A stretch of 64,000 nucleotides of DNA from Selenomonadaceae bacterium (GTDB lineage Bacteria > Bacillota > Negativicutes > Selenomonadales > Selenomonadaceae), in NCBI GenBank assembly GCA_051653465.1, contig JBOFWE010000068.1, forward strand, positions 20,007 to 84,006, in the 5' to 3' direction. The position numbers and the translations under genes are program-made. The first letter of the stretch is position 1, and the number at the start of each line of letters is the position of its first letter. Below the pieces are notes generated by a model that saw only the letters and a list, made by a program, of their open reading frames with translations, had not been told where the DNA came from and made no database searches. This document shows, piece by piece, positions 21,265 through 61,188 of the stretch.

Positions 21265-21475
21265 ATGAACCGTTGTAGTAAAACGAGGCGCAAAAAATGA
21301 GCCGCTATAAAGTGTAGTTGTCTATCCTGCGAGGTCGCTTTGAGGCGGCCTCGTTTTTTATCGGAGAATTTTATGAATTGAAGCACAGCGCAGGCAATAT
21401 TTTGAAAGGATTTTTCCTATTGATGACGAAATGAATGATTGATACCAGAAATGTAAGATTGGCAGGTGTATCCGC

Positions 21476-33841: not shown

Positions 33842-34054
33842 ATGAATAAAGGTACAGTAAAATGGTTTAACGCAGACAAAGGCTTTGGCTTCATCACAAA
33901 TGCAGAAGGCGGCGAAGATTTGTTCGTACATTTCTCGGCAATCGTTTCCGAGGGTTTCAAAACTCTTAACGAAGGCCAGGAAGTTACTTTCGATATCGAA
34001 GCAGATCCGAAAAATTCCAGCAAATTAAGAGCAGCTAACGTTCAGGCGTTATAA
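33842..34054 (+). CDS. Cold-shock protein, CspA family
   Basis: [18 protein letters not shown] and [12 protein letters not shown] motifs. Confidence 0.95.
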
Positions 34055-34108: not shown

Positions 34109-34150
34109 AAAAAAATAGCCTGACCTGGAATAGGACTTCAAGGTCAGGCT
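34109..34150 (-). terminator. Strong minus-strand terminator ending the copy-1 RNA transcript
   Basis: Minus sense: agcctgacct...aggtcaggct followed by ATTTTTTT. Confidence 0.8.
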
Positions 34151-34240
34151 GTCCAGCATGATCTTCGTGATTTTGGTTTAAAACCACCCGGCTATTCGAA
34201 ACACCAAAGAAGTGATCCAAATGGTCAACATAGTCTATCT

Positions 34241-34419
34241 CAACAAAATCACACGCTGTAACTGTAGAACTATCATCACCAGCGTATAGACATCGTGTCT
34301 ATTGAAGATGTGACAGCAGCTTTACCTGCGGATAGTTCGTTAGAGGAAGTCATTCGGACTGCCTCCGGAAAGGTTTTGATGCCATGGCGGGCATCGGCGA
34401 ATAACCTCATCTATGTTTG
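34241..34419 (-). ncRNA. Unclassified structured RNA element, copy 1 (orphan, no downstream CDS)
   Basis: Extended -10 tgtTATAAT (34429-34421) and TTGATT -35. Conserved 5' ATAGATGAGG. Helices GAGGTTATTCG/CGAATGACTTC, GAACTATC/GATAGTTC, CGCTG/CAGCG. Conserved CTACAGTTACAGCGTGTGATTTTG 3' end. Confidence 0.6.
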
Positions 34420-34487
34420 AATTATAACATGAGGCGGAAGATAAATCAATGGAATAATCGGAAAATTCTGCTGATTTTATTCGAGGG

Positions 34488-37270: not shown

Positions 37271-37466
37271 AAAGAAGTTTTGATAACAACAGACAGAATA
37301 TTCTGTTTGTTGTTATTTTTTTGTGAAAAAACAGCTCGCAATCTGACTTGTAACAAATATGAGGATTTTTATACAAAGGTAAGACTTTATTTGCTGTGAA
37401 GCGCTTGTAAAGTATAGCTTCTCCGGGTAGTATAGCAAGTAGAGAGGCTGCTTGGGAGGGGTGCAT

Positions 37467-38648: not shown

Positions 38649-38811
38649 AGGGAAAAATAGACCGCAGCCGGATATACAAAATATATCCGGCTGCGGTCTA
38701 TTTAGATAGGAAATATTTACTTGAAATTACAGAAAATATAGAATAATATAAATATAGAATGGCGTGAATTATATGCTGCTGACGATAATAGTAGAGGGGA
38801 CGTGACGTCGG

Positions 38812-53023: not shown

Positions 53024-53458
53024 TTACGGCAGGGTACAGCCCGTAAATTCATAGGCAAAACCATAGGGCTCTGCCTTTGCCAGCCCTTTTATGCGAATGG
53101 TTTGATTTTTTTTCAGGTTTAATAGGCTGTTTTTTTGAGATTCGCTGAAAAAGAAGCGAAAGTGAATTTTGCTAGAGGAATCATTGAGGGTCACATCCTG
53201 GAACATGTGAATTACATAAGGATAATCATTGTCATCTGATTTGCCGATGTAATCGATGGTACCGGTAACAGACAATACTTTCCCGTCGAATTTTTCTTTT
53301 GCCTGTAGCCCGTTGGAAAAAATCTCTTTTGCCAGTTCCTTGCATGAAATATTCATGGTGCTTGGTTTTGATTCAATATCGGCTGGGGTATTGGCGGAAC
53401 AACTTGTCAGAAAGAGAATGGGCAGCATAATAAGCAAAATTCGGCAAATGTGCAGCAT
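53024..53458 (-). CDS. Lipoprotein, OB-fold-like, function unknown
   Basis: Lipobox LFLTSC. ATG 53458 lies 8 nt after AGGAGG (ORF opens at 53479). Confidence 0.6.
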   Translation of the reverse strand: MLHICRILLIMLPILFLTSCSANTPADIESKPSTMNISCKELAKEIFSNGLQAKEKFDGKVLSVTGTIDYIGKSDDNDYPYVIHMFQDVTLNDSSSKIHFRFFFSESQKNSLLNLKKNQTIRIKGLAKAEPYGFAYEFTGCTLP

Positions 53459-53486
53459 GAAAATGACCTCCTGTCGCAAATATGAA

Positions 53487-53520
53487 ATGCCCTGCAGAAG
53501 ACGTCTCTTCTACAGGGCAT
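53487..53520 (-). terminator. Hairpin (attenuator/terminator-like) between RNA copy 2 and the lipoprotein gene
   Basis: Minus sense: atgccctgtagaagagacgtcttctgcagggcat followed by TTCATATTT. Confidence 0.5.
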
Positions 53521-53554
53521 CCAGCAATCTTTCCGACTTTGTCAGCACGGGCTG

Positions 53555-53718
53555 CAACAAAATCATACGCTATCACTGTAGAACTATCATCATTAGCGAA
53601 TTAGATAAAAAATCTAACAAAGATATGATAAAAGATAGTTCGTGGAAGAGGAAGCTGTCCGAGGGCCTCCTGAAAGGGGTTGATGTCTGGCGACATCAGG
53701 GAACAACTTCATCTATAT
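53555..53718 (-). ncRNA. Unclassified structured RNA element, copy 2 (leader of the lipoprotein gene)
   Basis: Extended -10 tgcTATATT (53731-53723) and TTGTAA -35. 5' ATAGATGAAG. Helices GAAGTTGTTC/GGACAGCTTC, GAACTATC/GATAGTTC, CGCTA/TAGCG. 3' CTACAGTGATAGCGTATGATTTTG. Confidence 0.6.
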
Positions 53719-53812
53719 TTGTAATATAGCATACTCGGTGCGCAGTTACAATATTAAATCAGAAAATTCTGCTATTTATACCATGAAAAAACTAAGCGTC
53801 TGTTAGCTGGGA

Positions 53813-55538: not shown

Positions 55539-55615
55539 GGGGTTATAGCTCAGTTGGTTAGAGTGCTTCGTTGACATCGAAGAGGTCACAGATTCGAGTT
55601 CTGTTAGCCCCACCA
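55539..55615 (+). tRNA. tRNA-Val (anticodon GAC) with encoded CCA
   Basis: Cloverleaf read by eye: acceptor GGGGTTA/TAGCCCC, D-arm agctcagttggttagagt, anticodon stem cttcg/cgaag with loop ttGACat, T-arm cacagattcgagttctgt. Own promoter TTGCAA-17-TAATAT at 55482-55510. Confidence 0.9.
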
Positions 55616-55648
55616 GTTCAATAATAAACACTTTGAGGGTGTTACTTT

Positions 55649-55690
55649 AGAGGTCATGATTTTAAAGAGTCATGACCTCTTTTATTTTTT
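55649..55690 (+). terminator. Terminator after tRNA-Val
   Basis: agaggtcatga...tcatgacctct followed by tttatttttt. Confidence 0.85.
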
Positions 55691-55823
55691 AACTCCATAA
55701 GGTGATCTAATACTTATAGATATTTAAAAACAGCTTTCATTTTGAGGAGTTTAAAATATCTTAGATAAGGAAATGTTAATATTTATATATGAAGTTTAAA
55801 TTAAACCAAAGGAGTGGAAATTA

Positions 55824-56471
55824 ATGTTTTTAAGAAATAAAATTTTAAGGGTGATTTTTTTAAGCAGCTGCTGCCTAATGTTGTTTTGTAGCATAGCTTA
55901 TGCTGGGGCTATAGAAGATGAGCATTATAGTGGGTCAACATATCATAATGACTATTTAGGTTTTTATATACAATTTCCGTCGGATTGGCATCTTCTAAAT
56001 GAATCACAAAATAAAGACCTTATCAAAAGAGGTATTGAATTATATAGTGGAAATGACGTTAATTTGAAAAATGCATTAACTGCATCGGAAGATAATGATA
56101 AGATTTTGGTACACTTTATAAAATATCCATTAGGTGCACCTTATAATATATCAGCAGTAGTTGAGGCTGTAAATGTGGAGAATTATCCGTATCTGCAAAA
56201 TGGCGAGAATTTTTTAGAAGCCAAAAAAATTTTTTTATTAAATACACCTATGACGATTGAATTTGAAAAGGACATTCATAATGAGGAAATAGATGGAATA
56301 AAGTGTACTGCAATGGTAACAAAACGTAAAATAGGAAAAATTGTAATTAAGCAAAAAACATATGTAATTTTTATGAAAGAATATGCTGTAGAATATATCT
56401 TTACTTATACGTTGCCAAAGCAAGAAAAAGAGGTAGATGATATTTTTAAGTCGTTGCGTTTTAATAAGTAG
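55824..56471 (+). CDS. Secreted hypothetical protein (AT-rich islet)
   Basis: Signal peptide ...LFCSIAYA. RBS aaaggag. Lys/Asn/Ile-rich composition. No family recognised. Confidence 0.55.
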   Translation: MFLRNKILRVIFLSSCCLMLFCSIAYAGAIEDEHYSGSTYHNDYLGFYIQFPSDWHLLNESQNKDLIKRGIELYSGNDVNLKNALTASEDNDKILVHFIKYPLGAPYNISAVVEAVNVENYPYLQNGENFLEAKKIFLLNTPMTIEFEKDIHNEEIDGIKCTAMVTKRKIGKIVIKQKTYVIFMKEYAVEYIFTYTLPKQEKEVDDIFKSLRFNK

Positions 56472-56521
56472 ATAGGGTTGATAAATGACATATTTATGGC
56501 AGTTTATATAGGAGTACTGTT

Positions 56522-57922
56522 TTGAATATTAAAGATTTTAAAGATAAAATTTCAAAAGGATTAGGCAGTGCTATATTATTTCTGAAAAATAATCCGGAGC
56601 AAGCACATAAATATAGTACGAGTATTCTTTGGGCTTGTTGCCATGATACAAGATATGATTCTCAATGTGAATCGGGAAGAAGCTTTTACCTTTATGAGGC
56701 GATTTGCCTGTCAAACAGAAAAGAGCAGCTTGAAGATAAATTATTGGAAAAACTTCTTCGTGCCAAGCGATATGAAGATGTTGAACAGCTTTTTGCAATA
56801 GCTGAAAGAATGCATGATAATGGGAATATTCGCGCAAGAAAAGTTATGTATGATAGATTTAAGGAATATTCAAGTAGGATACAAAAAATCAAAGTGTTTA
56901 GTTTTACTAGGAATAGAAATATATTGGAATGCGCAACAGCCGGAGCCATAAATATTATATCTATGGATAAGTTTGAAGGTTTGGAATTTGTCTTAGATAC
57001 CATGGGCAGTATAATGATATCTAAAAAGATAAAGGAATTATTCGATGCAGACTGGGTTTTAGCGTATGCCAAAAATGAATTGGGCGAAAAAAATCTGAAT
57101 GAGTTTTTAAAAGATAAATCCTCTGTAAATGAAAATATTAAAGTTCTATTTCAAGAATATAAAGCTAATCAACAAAGCCGATATGAGTATCAGCAAAATA
57201 AAAAAGCAGTAGTACCTAATTTTGAAAATATAATCTCCATGGTAGAGAGATATTGCTTTGAAGACAAGATGAGATTAGGAAGACGAAATATATTGTGCAG
57301 AATGGGTAAAAAGGCTGATGCTAAAGAACTTATCAAGGTAGCACGCGAGCTTGAAAATACAGTGGATGAATCGAAACAAATAGCTTTGCTGCATGTATTT
57401 AGGGAAGCGGAATATCCTCTCCCGATTGATTTTTTACTAAAGCTAGCATGTAATTCCAATAAGATGCTGGTAGGTACTGTGGCTGAAGCGTTAAAAAACA
57501 CTAAAGATCATAGAATACATGATCTAGCAATACGATTAATGAAAGACGGAGAACTTTGTATTTATGGACTAGGATTATTGAGGAAAAATTTCCAGCAAGA
57601 TTATGAGCTTATTTTAGAATTATTAAGAAAAGCAAAAGATCAGTGTAAGACAGAGTCGGATGAATATGAATTTCATAGTTTTACAATGGAAATAAGAGCT
57701 GTTTTTGAGTGCAACAAAAGTGTTGAAAGTGCGGATATTCTAGAATTTTTATATCAAAACACGACATGTTCATATTGCAGACAGAAAATAGTTCAAATAA
57801 TGTGTGATAATGATATTTTGTCCCGGCATGTTGCCGAAGAATGTCTGTATGATTGCGAGGATGAAACTCGAGCTATAGCCGTGGGCTATTTTAAAACGAA
57901 AGAGGCCTTTGTAAAAAAATAA
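56522..57922 (+). CDS. Hypothetical helical-repeat-like protein (AT-rich islet)
   Basis: TTG start after aggag. 466 aa, alpha-helical/repeat-like composition. No catalytic motif recognised. Confidence 0.55.
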   Translation: MNIKDFKDKISKGLGSAILFLKNNPEQAHKYSTSILWACCHDTRYDSQCESGRSFYLYEAICLSNRKEQLEDKLLEKLLRAKRYEDVEQLFAIAERMHDNGNIRARKVMYDRFKEYSSRIQKIKVFSFTRNRNILECATAGAINIISMDKFEGLEFVLDTMGSIMISKKIKELFDADWVLAYAKNELGEKNLNEFLKDKSSVNENIKVLFQEYKANQQSRYEYQQNKKAVVPNFENIISMVERYCFEDKMRLGRRNILCRMGKKADAKELIKVARELENTVDESKQIALLHVFREAEYPLPIDFLLKLACNSNKMLVGTVAEALKNTKDHRIHDLAIRLMKDGELCIYGLGLLRKNFQQDYELILELLRKAKDQCKTESDEYEFHSFTMEIRAVFECNKSVESADILEFLYQNTTCSYCRQKIVQIMCDNDILSRHVAEECLYDCEDETRAIAVGYFKTKEAFVKK

Positions 57923-58059
57923 AGCAGAAAGTATGATAAATCTTAGGCTGCTTTTTAAGGCGTTGTCTCGTTATACTCGTTATTTTATAAAAATAAGCCA
58001 GCAGGCTGAGGAATTGTTCCTTAGCCGCTGGCTTTTTGCTGTTTTTCGCGCTGGTCAGA

Positions 58060-58311
58060 TTACGATGGACCCGGCGGAACGTTGTCTTTTTCGGTCAGCT
58101 TTTCGACAGCCTGACGCAGTTGACGGATCTCATCAATCAATTCCTTATGGAAGTGAGAGCGCTCTTCCTGGCGCTGATAAAAGGGGCATTTGCCGCGATG
58201 CAGGAGAAGAAATATCAATCCGATAAAAAACAGGAGAAACATGGGCATCAAGAACATCATGAAGGGCATACCTGGACCATAACCTGGGGATCCCCACCAC
58301 ATATACATCAT
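58060..58311 (-). CDS. Small membrane protein with Met/Gly/Pro-rich N-terminus and C-terminal coiled coil
   Basis: MMYMWWGSPGYGPGMPFMMF..., one TM helix, then ELIDEIRQLRQAVEKL. RBS gggaaagg. Confidence 0.5.
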   Translation of the reverse strand: MMYMWWGSPGYGPGMPFMMFLMPMFLLFFIGLIFLLLHRGKCPFYQRQEERSHFHKELIDEIRQLRQAVEKLTEKDNVPPGPS

Positions 58312-58464
58312 CCTTTCCCTATTTTTTCGAGAGAATACACATTCTCTAGGTATTAAATTTCGGCAGGCGGGCGGCTATTCCTGCTGCAAAAGCAGCGGCA
58401 AAGGTTTCTAGGGAAAGTTTATTTATTCTAGATGATGGAAGAGGTAAATGAAACTGCCATGACA

Positions 58465-60321
58465 CTATTCACCAAGTAAAATACGGTGAATATCAAGGCC
58501 GTAACGGTGAATAAAGCTCTGCTTGACTTGCTGCAGGGTTTCCCCGGCAGTTGTCCCCTGGGCCATAAGCTGGCGGCGGGCAAGTTCGCCCGCAATTACA
58601 TCGAGAAATAGCTCGGCGAGCAGTAAGCGGGCATCGTCGCGGAAATGCCCTTGGCCGTTTACGTAGAGGCGGACGGTCGGAGCTTCGGTGTTTATAAGAA
58701 TCAATCGTTCTGCCGGAGCATAAATGGCGCGGTCAATGTCATTTCCCAGGCTGCGCAGCTCATAGCCAGCAAATAAAGGGGGATTAATGCTTTCGTCATA
58801 AGTGGATTTTGCCTTTTTGTCATGGGGATGATGAAAGCCAGCCCCGCCTGAATTTTTGACGATGGCAATTTTACAGTCTGCGGAGTAATTGCCAGCCGTA
58901 GCTGTTATGTGCCCGTTGATATTCAGCATGTGCCCTTGCGCAAGCCATTTAAAAGATCCTTTCGCATCAAGGTCGGAAAATTCGATTGTCTCGGGCTGAG
59001 GCGCAAGACTTATTTCGGGTGGAAGGTCATATGTCAGCTGAATCCCGCCTTTTTCACGCTGCAGATGCAGTACATCCGCGTGCAGGGTGATGTGAAAATG
59101 GTGATGTAGCTGACGGTAATATACGGGCATACTGAAGCGAAGACATGGCGGCAGGCTGATGCCGAGGTCTTCGGCAGCGGCCTGGTTCATTTTTTTCAGG
59201 ATCGTTTCGATCATTGTTTTGGTGCGCCTTGATGTGGAGGCGTGGTCGATATGACTCAGGCGCAGGCGTTCGCGTTCAATGGCGGGGCGGATCAGCTCAC
59301 TGACAGCAGCAGCGAATTTTTGGACAAAGGGATGTTTGGTGTTTAGCCCCTCGCGCTCATCGCTGATGATAGCCTGCCCGGCTCCGAGCATATCGAGTAA
59401 GGCGGGGCAACTGACGTGCCCGAAAAGATATTCCGTTCCCAACTGGTTTTCAAATTGAAAAAACTGGCAGTCAAGGACTGCGGTTCCCGATAAGATCAAC
59501 AGTCCGCTGGAACGCTCATCGCCCTTTAAAATCAGCTTTTCCTGAACGGATTTTTTCAATGTCAGCCAAAAGGGATAAAGCTGTTCCTGGTAGCGAAAGG
59601 TTTCCATGGCGTCGGGACCGAGTAAAACCATGGAATCTGGTTCTTGATAAGCTAAAATAACAGGGGCTTTTCTTGCATCTGAAGTTTGCTTGCTGGAAAA
59701 TTCCAGGCGTCGCCGACGTTGTATATCTCGCAGGTATACGTTGTTGGTTATAGCCTCTGCCAGAGACTGACTGAAAGGGAGGCTGACTTGTGGGTTTGTA
59801 ATCACGATAGTGACGGTGGTACCATTGCCGCCAGCGGGAATCTGCAGACGCCGATAATCTTCGGCAGAAGCTGACCGTTCGCCGCTGCCATCATCGTAGA
59901 CATATCGACCGTTCTCCAAACGAAAAAGATCGATTCGGCTGAAACGGCCATTGGCAATTGATTCGATCCAGCCGTATCCGAGTCCATAAACCGCTTGCTT
60001 TAACCCGCGACCGAAATACCCGCGGCCAATTGCTTGGCCATGAGCCAGCAGACTGTGCGAACCACCGTAGGATAGAATCCGGCGCAGATTGGGCAAGGAC
60101 ATTCCCTCGGCGCAATCGCTGACTGCAAGAATGCTGTTGATTTTATGGCGTTCATAATAAATGCGGATTACAGGGTCTATCGGTGTGTGAACACTTTCCA
60201 GGCGGCTGTAGCTGTCATCGTCATTGGTAATCAGCTCGACCAATGCTTTTTCGATGGAAGCAAAACGGCGGGAATCGATGTCTATAACCCGTTGGTCAAC
60301 CGGTAAATTTGCAACAGCCAT
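58465..60321 (-). CDS. GHKL-superfamily (HATPase_c_3-like) ATPase with a large uncharacterised C-terminal region
   Basis: N-box ALVELITNDDDSY, G1-box VSDCAEGMS, G2-box GRGYFGRGLKQAV. ATG 60321 lies 6 nt after AGGGGGA (ORF opens at 60399). Confidence 0.65.
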   Translation of the reverse strand: MAVANLPVDQRVIDIDSRRFASIEKALVELITNDDDSYSRLESVHTPIDPVIRIYYERHKINSILAVSDCAEGMSLPNLRRILSYGGSHSLLAHGQAIGRGYFGRGLKQAVYGLGYGWIESIANGRFSRIDLFRLENGRYVYDDGSGERSASAEDYRRLQIPAGGNGTTVTIVITNPQVSLPFSQSLAEAITNNVYLRDIQRRRRLEFSSKQTSDARKAPVILAYQEPDSMVLLGPDAMETFRYQEQLYPFWLTLKKSVQEKLILKGDERSSGLLILSGTAVLDCQFFQFENQLGTEYLFGHVSCPALLDMLGAGQAIISDEREGLNTKHPFVQKFAAAVSELIRPAIERERLRLSHIDHASTSRRTKTMIETILKKMNQAAAEDLGISLPPCLRFSMPVYYRQLHHHFHITLHADVLHLQREKGGIQLTYDLPPEISLAPQPETIEFSDLDAKGSFKWLAQGHMLNINGHITATAGNYSADCKIAIVKNSGGAGFHHPHDKKAKSTYDESINPPLFAGYELRSLGNDIDRAIYAPAERLILINTEAPTVRLYVNGQGHFRDDARLLLAELFLDVIAGELARRQLMAQGTTAGETLQQVKQSFIHRYGLDIHRILLGE

Positions 60322-60420
60322 GATCATTCCCCCTGCGATAAAATCTATCGGTAAAAATTTTAAAGAGGCTGGCACAGTATTAAATGGTGCCAGGGGCAAA
60401 AATTCTGTAACTTAATAAAT

Positions 60421-60450
60421 AAGCTGCAAAAGAATATTCTTTTGCAGCTT
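60421..60450 (-). terminator. Perfect 15+15 palindromic hairpin between RNA copy 3 and the GHKL gene (attenuator-like)
   Basis: aagctgcaaaagaat|attcttttgcagctt, followed on the minus strand by ATTTATT. Confidence 0.45.
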
Positions 60451-60488
60451 ATCCAGTATTACCCTTATGGTTTTTGTAGATGAGAATC

Positions 60489-60651
60489 GGAAAAACCATG
60501 CGCTATAACTGTGAGACTGTCGTCGCTAGCGCTTTACCCATATCAGAGCAAAAAGGATGTGACCGCTGACAGCCCTGGCAGAAGAAACTGTTCAAACTGC
60601 CTCAGGTAAGAGTTAGAGGACTTTACTGCTGGTGAACAGCTTCATCTATAA
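60489..60651 (-). ncRNA. Unclassified structured RNA element, copy 3 (leader of the GHKL ATPase gene)
   Basis: Extended -10 tgaTATAAT (60664-60656) and TTGATG -35. 5' ATAGATGAAG. Helices GAAGCTGTTCA/TGAACAGTTTC, GGCTGTC/GACAGTC, GCGCTA/TAGCGC. 3' CACAGTTATAGCGCATGGTTTTT. Confidence 0.6.
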
Positions 60652-60731
60652 GGAAATTATATCATAGGGGCAGTTTTTCATCAATGAAATTCTAAATTTT
60701 CTGTTAATTTTAGGGAGATGGTCACAAAATA

Positions 60732-61076: not shown

Positions 61077-61188
61077 AAAATCCCTCCTGTAAGTTTGTTC
61101 AGGTATAGAATATCATATTTCACAAATTATAACCATAATATTCTGAAAATGTATTGATGTTTCGCCAAGACTGGAAAATGAGTCGTGC

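What the first reader, a model, noticed from the sequence alone, without database searches (positions are those of the whole stretch)
60322..60665. Unrecognised structured RNA family present three times in this window; copy 3 forms the leader of a GHKL ATPase gene
**What is seen.**
- Three minus-strand loci (about 34241-34419, 53555-53718 and 60489-60651) share the same architecture.
- Each starts about 7 nt after an extended -10 promoter with a -35 element 17 nt upstream: tgtTATAAT/TTGATT, tgcTATATT/TTGTAA and tgaTATAAT/TTGATG.
- Each opens with ATAGATGARG and ends with (C)ACAGTKAYAGCGYRTGRTTTT.

**Helices kept by compensatory change.**
- P-a: GAGGTTATTCG/CGAATGACTTC, GAAGTTGTTC/GGACAGCTTC, GAAGCTGTTCA/TGAACAGTTTC.
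- P-b: GAACTATC/GATAGTTC (copies 1 and 2) versus GGCTGTC/GACAGTC (copy 3).
- P-c: CGCTG/CAGCG, CGCTA/TAGCG, GCGCTA/TAGCGC.
- All non-Watson-Crick pairs are G-U only when read on the minus strand. They would be A-C on the plus strand, which fixes the orientation.
- The 5' arm of P-c lies between the two arms of P-b. The two are therefore either a pseudoknot or mutually exclusive, as in riboswitch aptamers and expression platforms.

**Context of copy 3.** The element is followed by a perfect 30-nt palindromic hairpin (60421-60450) and then the RBS and ATG of the GHKL ATPase.

**Novelty.** I cannot match the conserved blocks to any class whose consensus I can recall. It is clearly not TPP, cobalamin or T-box, all of which occur elsewhere in this window.
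Basis: seen in the sequence. Interest (0 to 1): 0.8.

Follow-up and report, generated by a model that had tools for sequence, protein, structure and literature searches.

The report
Three-copy structured small RNA gene family
Three paralogous genes in an uncultured Selenomonadaceae bacterium encode a folded small RNA of about 235-305 nt, each with its own promoter and terminator; it matches no catalogued RNA family and looks more like a small-RNA gene family limited to this lineage than a riboswitch.

Summary
Three minus-strand loci (cores 34241-34414, 53555-53716, 60488-60649) share a ~165-175 nt element. A covariance model scores them 138-209 bits; the next best window hit is 13.7 bits. No Rfam 15 family matches.

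94.5% of pair cells are standard pairs, against 38-48% when partners are slid, and 15 pairs change on both sides. About 40 G-U cells fix the minus strand.

Each copy is a full transcription unit:
- a shared upstream box (CAGAAWWTTYNGA);
- a -35 and an extended -10;
- the core;
- a homologous 3' module of two further helices;
- an intrinsic terminator.

Copy 1 has no downstream gene on its strand. It differs at 1 of 310 positions from a sister lineage whose flanking genes are 77-93% identical.

Homologues of the downstream ATPase in other bacteria lack the RNA. No antiterminator is detectable. The three downstream contexts are unrelated.

My reading is therefore a set of small-RNA genes. Leaky terminators probably also feed the downstream genes of copies 2 and 3. 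A riboswitch-like leader is not excluded.

The family was found only in this lineage. Function is unknown. Interest is moderate to low.

The parts
34456..34470 (-). Copy 1 upstream box CAGAATTTTCCGATT (about -43 to -57)
   Evidence: Exact pattern hits occur only at the three promoters: 3 found, 0.15 expected. The box is invariant in orthologues while neighbouring promoter spacer positions vary.
34421..34449 (-). Copy 1 promoter: TTGATT, 17 nt, TG-n-TATAAT
   Evidence: Promoter scan, 10 of 12 matches with TG. The hexamers are conserved and the spacer is variable in orthologues.
34241..34414 (-). Copy 1 conserved core: P1 three-way junction, P2 domain, P-c 3' arm
   Evidence: R1 scores 208.9 bits. 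173 of 174 positions are identical to sister lineage L011.
34109..34240 (-). Copy 1 3' module. P-d is GUGAUUUUG (34244-34252) paired with CAAAAUCAC (34167-34175), enclosing a ~70 nt insert. The terminator stem is 34117-34150, followed by U7.
   Evidence: Folds. 136 of 136 positions are identical to L011. The terminator is shared with the convergent csp gene at 33842-34054 on the plus strand.
53757..53771 (-). Copy 2 upstream box CAGAATTTTCTGATT
   Evidence: Conserved in L029 while flanking sequence diverges.
53723..53751 (-). Copy 2 promoter: TTGTAA, 17 nt, TG-n-TATATT
53555..53716 (-). Copy 2 conserved core
   Evidence: R1 scores 139.4 bits. 95.1% identical to L029, against 86-92% for flanking genes.
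53477..53554 (-). Copy 2 3' module. P-d pairs 53552-53564 with 53535-53545. Then the spacer with GCUGGAU, the terminator stem 53487-53521 and the tail UUCAUAUUU.
   Evidence: Folds. The change in L029 turns a U-G pair into U-A in P-d.
53024..53458 (-). Gene after copy 2: a 144-aa lipoprotein with a tRNA_anti-like OB fold. Its RBS starts about 10 nt after the terminator tail.
   Evidence: Pfam PF12869, E 1.1e-8. Sequence. Homologues occur only in this lineage.
60689..60703 (-). Copy 3 upstream box CAGAAAATTTAGAAT
60656..60684 (-). Copy 3 promoter: TTGATG, 17 nt, TG-n-TATAAT
   Evidence: top-ranked site in 52-62 kb.
60488..60649 (-). Copy 3 conserved core
   Evidence: R1 scores 138.0 bits. 97.6% identical to MAG OY782746.1 (L001), against 93-96% for flanking genes.
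60411..60487 (-). Copy 3 3' module. P-d is AUGGUUUUU (60491-60499) paired with AAAAACCAU (60467-60475). Then the spacer with ACUGGAU, the terminator hairpin 60419-60454 (containing the perfect palindrome 60421-60450) and the tail UUAUUUAUU.
   Evidence: Folds; sequence.
60322..60410 (-). Variable spacer between the copy 3 terminator and the ATPase start codon. It holds a second hairpin and a box-like ACAGAATTTTTG. About 45 nt are missing in the MAG orthologue.
   Evidence: 47.8% column identity because of the indel.
58465..60321 (-). Gene after copy 3: a 618-aa GHKL-type (HATPase_c_3) ATP-binding protein
   Evidence: No PADLOC or NCBIfam match.

Best explanation
The three loci are paralogous genes for a structured small RNA. 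The transcripts run about 305 nt (copy 1), 239 nt (copy 2) and 236 nt (copy 3).

**Shown by sequence and computation**
- Each copy has a sigma-70-type promoter with an extended -10, preceded by a shared upstream box. This implies common regulation.
- The RNA starts at or next to ATAGAUG.
- It folds into a 5' three-way junction (P1, P1a, P1b) and a second domain (P-b, P2b, P2c).
- An internal loop of the second domain (CGCUR) pairs with YAGCG further 3'. This is the P-c pseudoknot.
- A homologous 3' module follows. P-e (CAGU with RCUG) encloses P-d (UGRUUUU with AAAAYCA), and an intrinsic terminator comes directly after.

**Inferred**
- The RNA itself is the functional product and acts in trans. 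Its compact fold lacks an obvious single-stranded seed, so binding a protein or another macromolecule seems more likely than simple base pairing.
- The terminators of copies 2 and 3 have interrupted U-tracts, and the next genes have no recognisable promoter. Read-through from the RNA promoter probably also supplies their mRNA.
- Serving as a leader is then a consequence of where the cassette landed, not its primary role.
For: **Family and structure**
- Three copies score 138-209 bits with nothing else above 13.7 bits.
- 94.5% of pair cells are standard pairs against 38-48% for slid partners. 15 pairs change on both sides, and 0 of 500 shuffles reach the observed values.
- Fold z-scores are -4.8, -7.6 and -5.0.

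**Transcription unit boundaries**
- In orthologues the box, -35, -10 and everything from ATAGATG to the terminator U-run are conserved. The promoter spacer and upstream DNA diverge.
- Copy 1 is 309 of 310 identical to L011, where flanking genes are 77-93% identical and its own promoter region 83%.
- Copies 2 and 3 are 95.1% and 97.6% identical, against 86-96% for flanking genes.

**Orphan copy**
- Copy 1 runs into the terminator of a convergent cold-shock gene. No gene follows on its strand.

**Shared elements**
- The upstream box is found exactly only at the three promoters.
- The 3' module folds the same way in all copies and in two orthologue variants.

**Against a dedicated leader**
- ATPase homologues elsewhere lack the RNA.
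- No antiterminator signal was found.
Against: - No transcript data exist. The promoters, start sites and terminators are predictions.
- The RNA is unusually compact and pseudoknotted for a base-pairing sRNA. I found no conserved accessible seed and no target.
- Two of three copies sit directly upstream of same-strand genes that lack visible promoters. Minus-strand genes are the minority in this window. This is what a cis-regulatory leader would look like.
- Only three independent sequences exist, so covariation statistics are weak. P-c and the alternative 3' hairpin cannot be separated: column 162 covaries with both partners.
Confidence: 0.5

Rival explanations
1. The element is a cis-acting conditional terminator: a riboswitch, or a leader that binds a protein. 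The conserved core binds a small molecule (for example a second messenger) or a protein. This controls read-through of the terminator into the downstream gene. Copy 1 would be an orphan that acts as a decoy or a trans-acting by-product.
For: - The core is complex and conserved, with a three-way junction, a loop-loop pseudoknot and invariant unpaired nucleotides.
- Copies 2 and 3 lie on the same strand directly upstream of genes with no recognisable promoter. The lipoprotein RBS begins about 10 nt after the terminator tail. In the MAG only about 47 nt separate the terminator from the ATPase ATG.
- The terminator U-tracts of copies 2 and 3 are interrupted.
- Heterogeneous downstream genes and orphan copies are known for second-messenger riboswitches (my own knowledge).
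Against: - Copy 1 has no gene to control, yet it is the most conserved copy and has the strongest terminator.
- Complementarity to the terminator 5' arm is no better than in shuffles, and the best sites are not at homologous positions in all copies.
- The downstream genes share no function.
- The RNA is absent upstream of ATPase homologues in other taxa.
- The family was detected in only one lineage across 185,579 species genomes and the JGI metagenomes, with the patterns used.
Confidence: 0.25
2. The element is a processive antitermination RNA, like put of phage HK022 or the EAR element. The promoter-proximal structured RNA would modify the RNA polymerase that made it, so that the polymerase ignores the downstream terminator and later ones.
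For: The layout promoter, structured RNA, terminator, genes matches copies 2 and 3.
Against: - There is no Rfam match to EAR or any related model.
- For copy 1, read-through would only produce antisense csp RNA.
- The downstream units are single short genes, not long operons with internal terminators.
Confidence: 0.05
3. The loci are small-protein or type I toxin mRNAs rather than non-coding RNAs. Candidates are an ORF starting at the conserved AUG (M-K/R-L-F...) and the hydrophobic 17-aa ORF in the copy 1 tail.
For: - The conserved ATGARGYTRTTC reads as Met-Lys/Arg-Leu-Phe, with synonymous Leu codons (TTA, TTG, CTG).
- Copy 1 has the ORF MLTIWITSLVFRIAGWF at 34178-34231.
Against: - After four codons the three 5' ORFs diverge completely and stop after 44, 32 and 10 codons. 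There is no Shine-Dalgarno sequence.
- The same variable nucleotides are compensated on the other arm of helix P1.
- The 17-aa ORF lies in an insert found only in copy 1. That insert folds as an extension of P-d.
Confidence: 0.05
4. The copies are selfish or neutral repeats, for example a miniature mobile element or a duplicated promoter fragment, with no RNA function.
For: There are three dispersed copies within 26 kb. Copy 3 borders a strain-variable region next to a tRNA gene.
Against: - There are no terminal inverted repeats or target duplications.
- The paralogues are only 73% identical yet keep their helices through compensatory changes.
- Orthologues show purifying selection that begins exactly at the predicted transcription start.
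- No similarity to phage or plasmid collections, and no hit in the viral contigs.
Confidence: 0.03

Closest known systems
Multicopy paralogous sRNA families driven by one regulator (Qrr1-5 of Vibrio, csRNA1-5 of Streptococcus under CiaR, LhrC1-5 of Listeria under LisR)
   Same: Several dispersed paralogues per genome. Each has its own promoter carrying a shared upstream motif and its own intrinsic terminator. The conserved RNA core contrasts with divergent flanks.
   Different: Those RNAs are 90-150 nt long and have clear single-stranded seed motifs. Here the RNA is 236-305 nt, compact and pseudoknotted, with no evident seed. No regulator or target is known. There is no sequence or Rfam relationship.
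Riboswitch-derived or orphan riboswitch RNAs (SreA/SreB SAM riboswitches acting in trans; c-di-GMP-I riboswitches upstream of diverse genes and as orphans)
   Same: A structured 5' element followed by a terminator. Downstream genes are heterogeneous, and one copy has no gene to control.
   Different: No match to any riboswitch model. No terminator/antiterminator alternative is detectable. The 3' module is conserved as part of the RNA itself. The distribution is limited to one lineage.
Structured bacterial ncRNAs of Bacillota with unknown or only partly known function (for example the raiA motif RNA)
   Same: A size of a few hundred nucleotides, multi-stem junctions with a pseudoknot, own promoter and terminator, and strong conservation (raiA context from PMC10861870; the rest from my own knowledge).
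   Different: Those classes span many genera and are in Rfam. This one gives no cmscan hit and was found only in one Selenomonadaceae lineage.
Processive antitermination RNAs (HK022 put, EAR)
   Same: A promoter-proximal structured RNA placed ahead of terminators.
   Different: No model match. The context is short single genes, and one copy has nothing downstream.

Membership tests
Any Rfam 15 family (including TPP, cobalamin, T-box, c-di-GMP-I/II, raiA, EAR) | cmscan score at or above the family's gathering threshold | tested here: not met
   The whole window at gathering score gives only cobalamin, T-box, TPP and a tRNA, all elsewhere. At E<=10 the three loci give only noise such as miRNA and snoRNA models, plus a hairpin hit on the palindrome.
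Riboswitch (cis-acting ligand-sensing leader) | Conserved structured aptamer with covariation | tested here: met
   94.5% of pair cells are paired and 15 pairs change on both sides. Only three independent sequences are available.
Riboswitch (cis-acting ligand-sensing leader) | Located in the 5' UTR of genes with a coherent function | tested here: not met
   Copy 1 has no same-strand downstream gene. Copy 2 precedes an OB-fold lipoprotein and copy 3 a GHKL-type ATPase. ATPase homologues elsewhere lack the RNA.
Riboswitch (cis-acting ligand-sensing leader) | Expression platform with mutually exclusive terminator and antiterminator (or RBS-sequestering) structures overlapping the aptamer | tested here: inconclusive
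   RNAduplex of the terminator 5' arm against the upstream RNA is no better than in shuffles: 106, 61 and 45 of 200 shuffles do at least as well. P-c and a 3' hairpin are alternatives, but neither touches the terminator.
Riboswitch (cis-acting ligand-sensing leader) | Direct, specific ligand binding | not testable with these tools
   Needs in-line probing or ITC.
Independently transcribed bacterial sRNA gene | Own promoter | tested here: met
   Extended -10 promoters with 9-10 of 12 matches at all copies. The hexamers and box are conserved in orthologues while the spacers diverge. This is a prediction; no transcript data exist.
Independently transcribed bacterial sRNA gene | Own intrinsic terminator and no protein-coding capacity | tested here: met
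   Stable hairpins (-20.5 to -26.2 kcal/mol) followed by U-rich tails. The ORFs in the three copies are unrelated and of different lengths.
Independently transcribed bacterial sRNA gene | Trans target or partner (seed complementarity, or a protein partner) | not tested
   No conserved single-stranded seed is evident. The whole genome was not available for target prediction.
Multicopy co-regulated sRNA family (Qrr, csRNA or LhrC type) | Two or more paralogues sharing a promoter-associated regulator motif | tested here: met
   CAGAAWWTTYNGA occurs only at the three promoters: 3 found, 0.15 expected. The regulator is unidentified.

The most novel reading that the evidence does not exclude
The core is a new class of ligand- or protein-responsive RNA. 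It would gate leaky intrinsic terminators and spread within a genome as a portable promoter-sensor-terminator cassette. One orphan copy would have become a trans-acting or decoy RNA. In short, a previously unseen riboswitch-like or antitermination module, limited to one genus.
Probability: 0.2. Interest if true: 0.65.

Novelty: new member of a known kind. Interest (0 to 1): 0.35.

Why it matters
- It adds an un-catalogued structured RNA family to the Negativicutes, a group in which almost no regulatory RNAs have been studied.
- Conservation of the orphan copy is extreme: 1 change in 310 nt against roughly 8% background divergence. Together with the three-way junction, the pseudoknot and the shared promoter box, this points to a co-regulated RNA of real physiological importance in this lineage.
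- If the core proves to sense a ligand or a protein and to gate its terminator, it would be a new regulatory RNA class.
- As things stand it is a well-defined candidate for Rfam and for transcriptomic follow-up, not a surprise for the field.

Tried and rejected
**Known families**
- Rfam at gathering score and at E<=10 gave nothing.

**Searches for distant homologues**
- Strict two-block pattern on 185,579 species genomes: only the near-identical MAG OY782746.1.
- Looser 3'-block pattern on JGI metagenomes: 24 loci, of which only 4 are real, and all 4 are close orthologues.
- Viral contigs: 0 hits. Phage and plasmid blastn: no match.

**Synteny routes**
- Homologues of the 179-aa neighbour at 38-40% identity lie in different contexts with no RNA in the surrounding ~20-kb loci.
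- ATPase homologues have no RNA upstream.
- The lipoprotein has no homologues outside the lineage.

**Other tests**
- Fourth copy: a filters-off model search of the window and about 5 kb beyond its right end found none.
- Antiterminator: an 8-bp match in copy 2 (UUCUACAG with CUGUAGAA) looked promising. It is not conserved in the other copies, and duplex energies are no better than in shuffles.
- Coding reading of the conserved 5' AUG: rejected, because the ORFs diverge and the nucleotides are compensated in helix P1.
- Contigs that end at copy 3 looked like a repeat or island boundary. They break inside the 30-nt palindrome, which is an assembly artefact.
- Defence-system assignment of the ATPase: no PADLOC or NCBIfam hit.
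- Literature searches found no described sRNA of this kind in Negativicutes. The gltD, ldh2, ilvD, potE and SLH motifs have other gene contexts.

Full report

Yes. Reading the minus strand at the three loci and aligning them (73% mean column identity) confirms three copies of one element.

- All three open with ATAGATGARG and close with ACAGTKAYAGCGYRTGRTTTT.
- Each block occurs exactly three times in the 64-kb window.
- I built covariance model R1 from the copies plus close orthologues. It scores them 208.9, 139.4 and 138.0 bits.
- With all filters off the next best hit in the window is 13.7 bits. There are therefore three copies and no degenerate fourth.
- The 30-nt perfect palindrome at 60421-60450 is real, as are the RBS and ATG at 60321.
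- The downstream protein is a plausible GHKL-type ATPase. Its own Pfam score is just below threshold, but most of its homologues carry PF13589.

**2. Is it a known RNA?**

No family of Rfam 15 matches.

- At gathering thresholds the window contains a cobalamin riboswitch, a T-box, a TPP riboswitch and a tRNA, none at these loci.
- Permissive scans of each locus returned only noise.
- Literature searches on Negativicutes ncRNAs turned up motifs tied to other genes (gltD, ldh2, ilvD, potE, SLH) and nothing resembling this element.

**3. Structure**

RNAalifold on the copies and explicit pair counts on a seven-sequence alignment support the following model. The alignment holds three paralogues and four orthologue variants (A5).

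P1a is degenerate in copy 3.
- P-b, P2b and P2c form a second domain.
- The CGCUR segment inside that domain pairs with YAGCG downstream.

The counts are as follows:

| Measure | Result |
|---|---|
| Pair cells that are standard pairs | 94.5% |
| Same, with 3' partners slid by 1-3 columns | 38-48% |
| Pairs that change on both sides | 15 |
| Shuffles reaching the observed values | 0 of 500 |
| G-U or U-G cells | about 40 of 346 |

Two caveats apply. Only three sequences are truly independent. An alternative weak 3' hairpin shares its one covarying column with P-c, so the two cannot be separated.

**4.

*Upstream.* A 13-15 nt box (CAGAAWWTTYNGA) sits just 5' of each -35. It occurs exactly only at these three promoters: 3 found, 0.15 expected.

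*Downstream.* The conserved tail UGRUUUU pairs in every copy with a downstream AAAAYCA segment. I call this helix P-d.
- Copy 1: GUGAUUUUG with CAAAAUCAC, around a ~70-nt insert.
- Copy 2: GAUUUUGUUGCAG with CUGACAAAGUC.
- Copy 3: AUGGUUUUU with AAAAACCAU. Relative to copy 1 this is an A-U to G-C compensation.

The invariant CAGU pairs with a conserved RCUG in a spacer (RCUGGAY). I call this P-e. A strong hairpin with a U-rich tail follows immediately. The predicted RNAs are about 305, 239 and 236 nt long.

**5. Evolutionary evidence for these boundaries**

The exact cold-shock protein next to copy 1 occurs on many contigs. These include a sister lineage about 91% identical at the DNA level.

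In alignments of that lineage, the box, the -35, the -10 and everything from ATAGATG to the terminator U-run are invariant. The promoter spacer and the sequence upstream of the box are riddled with substitutions.

| Copy 1 region, window vs L011 | Identity |
|---|---|
| RNA core | 173 of 174 |
| 3' module and terminator | 136 of 136 |
| Its own promoter region | 83% |
| Adjacent 179-aa gene | 77% |
| Other neighbouring genes | 90-93% |

Copies 2 and 3 show the same trend, less strongly. Their cores are 95.1% and 97.6% identical, against 86-96% for flanking genes. The few substitutions are mostly pair-preserving:
- A-U to G-U in P2b;
- U-G to U-A in P-d of L029;
- G-U to G-C in P-b of L001.

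**6. Leader or free-standing RNA?**

*For free-standing.*
- Copy 1 is convergent with the cold-shock gene and ends at a shared terminator. Nothing follows on its strand.
- Copy 1 is the best conserved copy and has the best terminator (U7).
- The three downstream contexts are unrelated.
- The ATPase family is widespread at only 52-59% identity (Negativicutes, Raineyella, Peptococcaceae). This suggests a horizontally moving solitary gene.
- The three homologous loci I fetched carry no such RNA.
- The best pairing between each RNA and the 5' arm of its terminator is no better than for shuffled RNA: 106, 61 and 45 of 200 shuffles do at least as well. There is therefore no recognisable antiterminator.

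*For a cis component.*
- The lipoprotein RBS begins about 10 nt after the copy 2 terminator tail.
- In the MAG orthologue only about 47 nt separate the copy 3 terminator from the ATPase ATG.
- I see no promoter for either gene.
- The U-tracts of these two terminators are interrupted (UUCAUAUUU and UUAUUUAUU).
- Read-through from the RNA promoter is therefore the likeliest source of those mRNAs.

**7. Distribution**

- The organism is an uncultured Selenomonadaceae bacterium; the closest genome is MAG OY782746.1.
- A strict two-block pattern found only that MAG among 185,579 species genomes.
- A looser 3'-block pattern found only close orthologues of copies 1 and 2 in JGI metagenomes.
- Nothing was found in viral, phage or plasmid collections.
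- Within the reach of these pattern searches the family is confined to one genus-level lineage. A model search of whole genomes could not be run here.

**8. Verdict**

The finding is a real, un-catalogued family of structured RNAs. The most economical reading is three paralogous, co-regulated sRNA genes whose RNA is the product. Leaky termination incidentally, or secondarily, drives the downstream genes of two copies (confidence about 0.5).

A riboswitch-like or protein-dependent conditional terminator remains possible (about 0.25) and would be the more novel outcome. Antitermination, coding and selfish-repeat readings are unlikely.

Function is unknown, and no target, ligand or regulator can be named from the sequence. 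I rate the novelty as a new member of a known kind. Interest is moderate to low until transcript data or wider homologues are available.

Noticed in passing
window 34178-34231 (-): A 17-codon hydrophobic ORF (MLTIWITSLVFRIAGWF) with a weak GAGA upstream lies in the insert that only copy 1 carries inside helix P-d. It is 100% conserved at the nucleotide level in the sister lineage, so coding and structural constraint cannot be told apart. It could be a type I toxin-like peptide or simply a stem extension.
   Followed up: partly
window-wide; e.g. 37294-37305, 21446-21460, 38730-38744, 61131-61145, 60396-60407: Sequences resembling the promoter box (CAGAAWWTTYNGATT, up to 2 mismatches) are enriched: 26 found against 7.7 expected, and 0 of 100 shuffles reach that count. 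They include a perfect palindrome CAGAATATTCTG in the intergenic region after the DeoR-type gene, and a box-like ACAGAATTTTTG just upstream of the ATPase gene. This may be the site of a global regulator. The half-match to the CodY consensus is from memory only.
   Followed up: partly
window 60350-60394 (-) vs L001 1380-1390: A ~45-nt segment between the copy 3 terminator and the ATPase gene is absent from the MAG orthologue. It forms a second hairpin (CUGGCAC...GUGCCAG) followed by a U-rich run.
   Followed up: no
window 55539-58460 vs L001: The region between tRNA 55539-55612 and the ATPase gene holds ORFs of 215, 466 and 97 aa with no family assignment. It does not align with the MAG (27-37% column identity). 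This suggests a strain-variable island next to the tRNA gene, with RNA copy 3 and the ATPase at its far edge.
   Followed up: no
window 58465-60321 (-); L042-L044: The 618-aa HATPase_c_3 protein has hundreds of full-length homologues at only 52-59% identity in Negativicutes, Actinomycetota (Raineyella), Peptococcaceae and others. In the three homologous loci fetched it is flanked by unrelated genes each time. It matches no PADLOC or NCBIfam model. It is a widespread, uncharacterised GHKL protein.
   Followed up: partly
L045 1-30; L046 6820-6848 (= window 60421-60450): Logan contigs carrying either side of copy 3 all end inside the 30-nt perfect palindrome. This is an assembly artefact that could be mistaken for a mobile-element boundary.
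   Followed up: yes
window 53564-53590 (-): In copy 2 only, UUCUACAG in the conserved core is perfectly complementary to CUGUAGAA in the 5' arm of its terminator. This 8-bp potential antiterminator is not conserved in copies 1 and 3 and is not significant against shuffles.
   Followed up: yes
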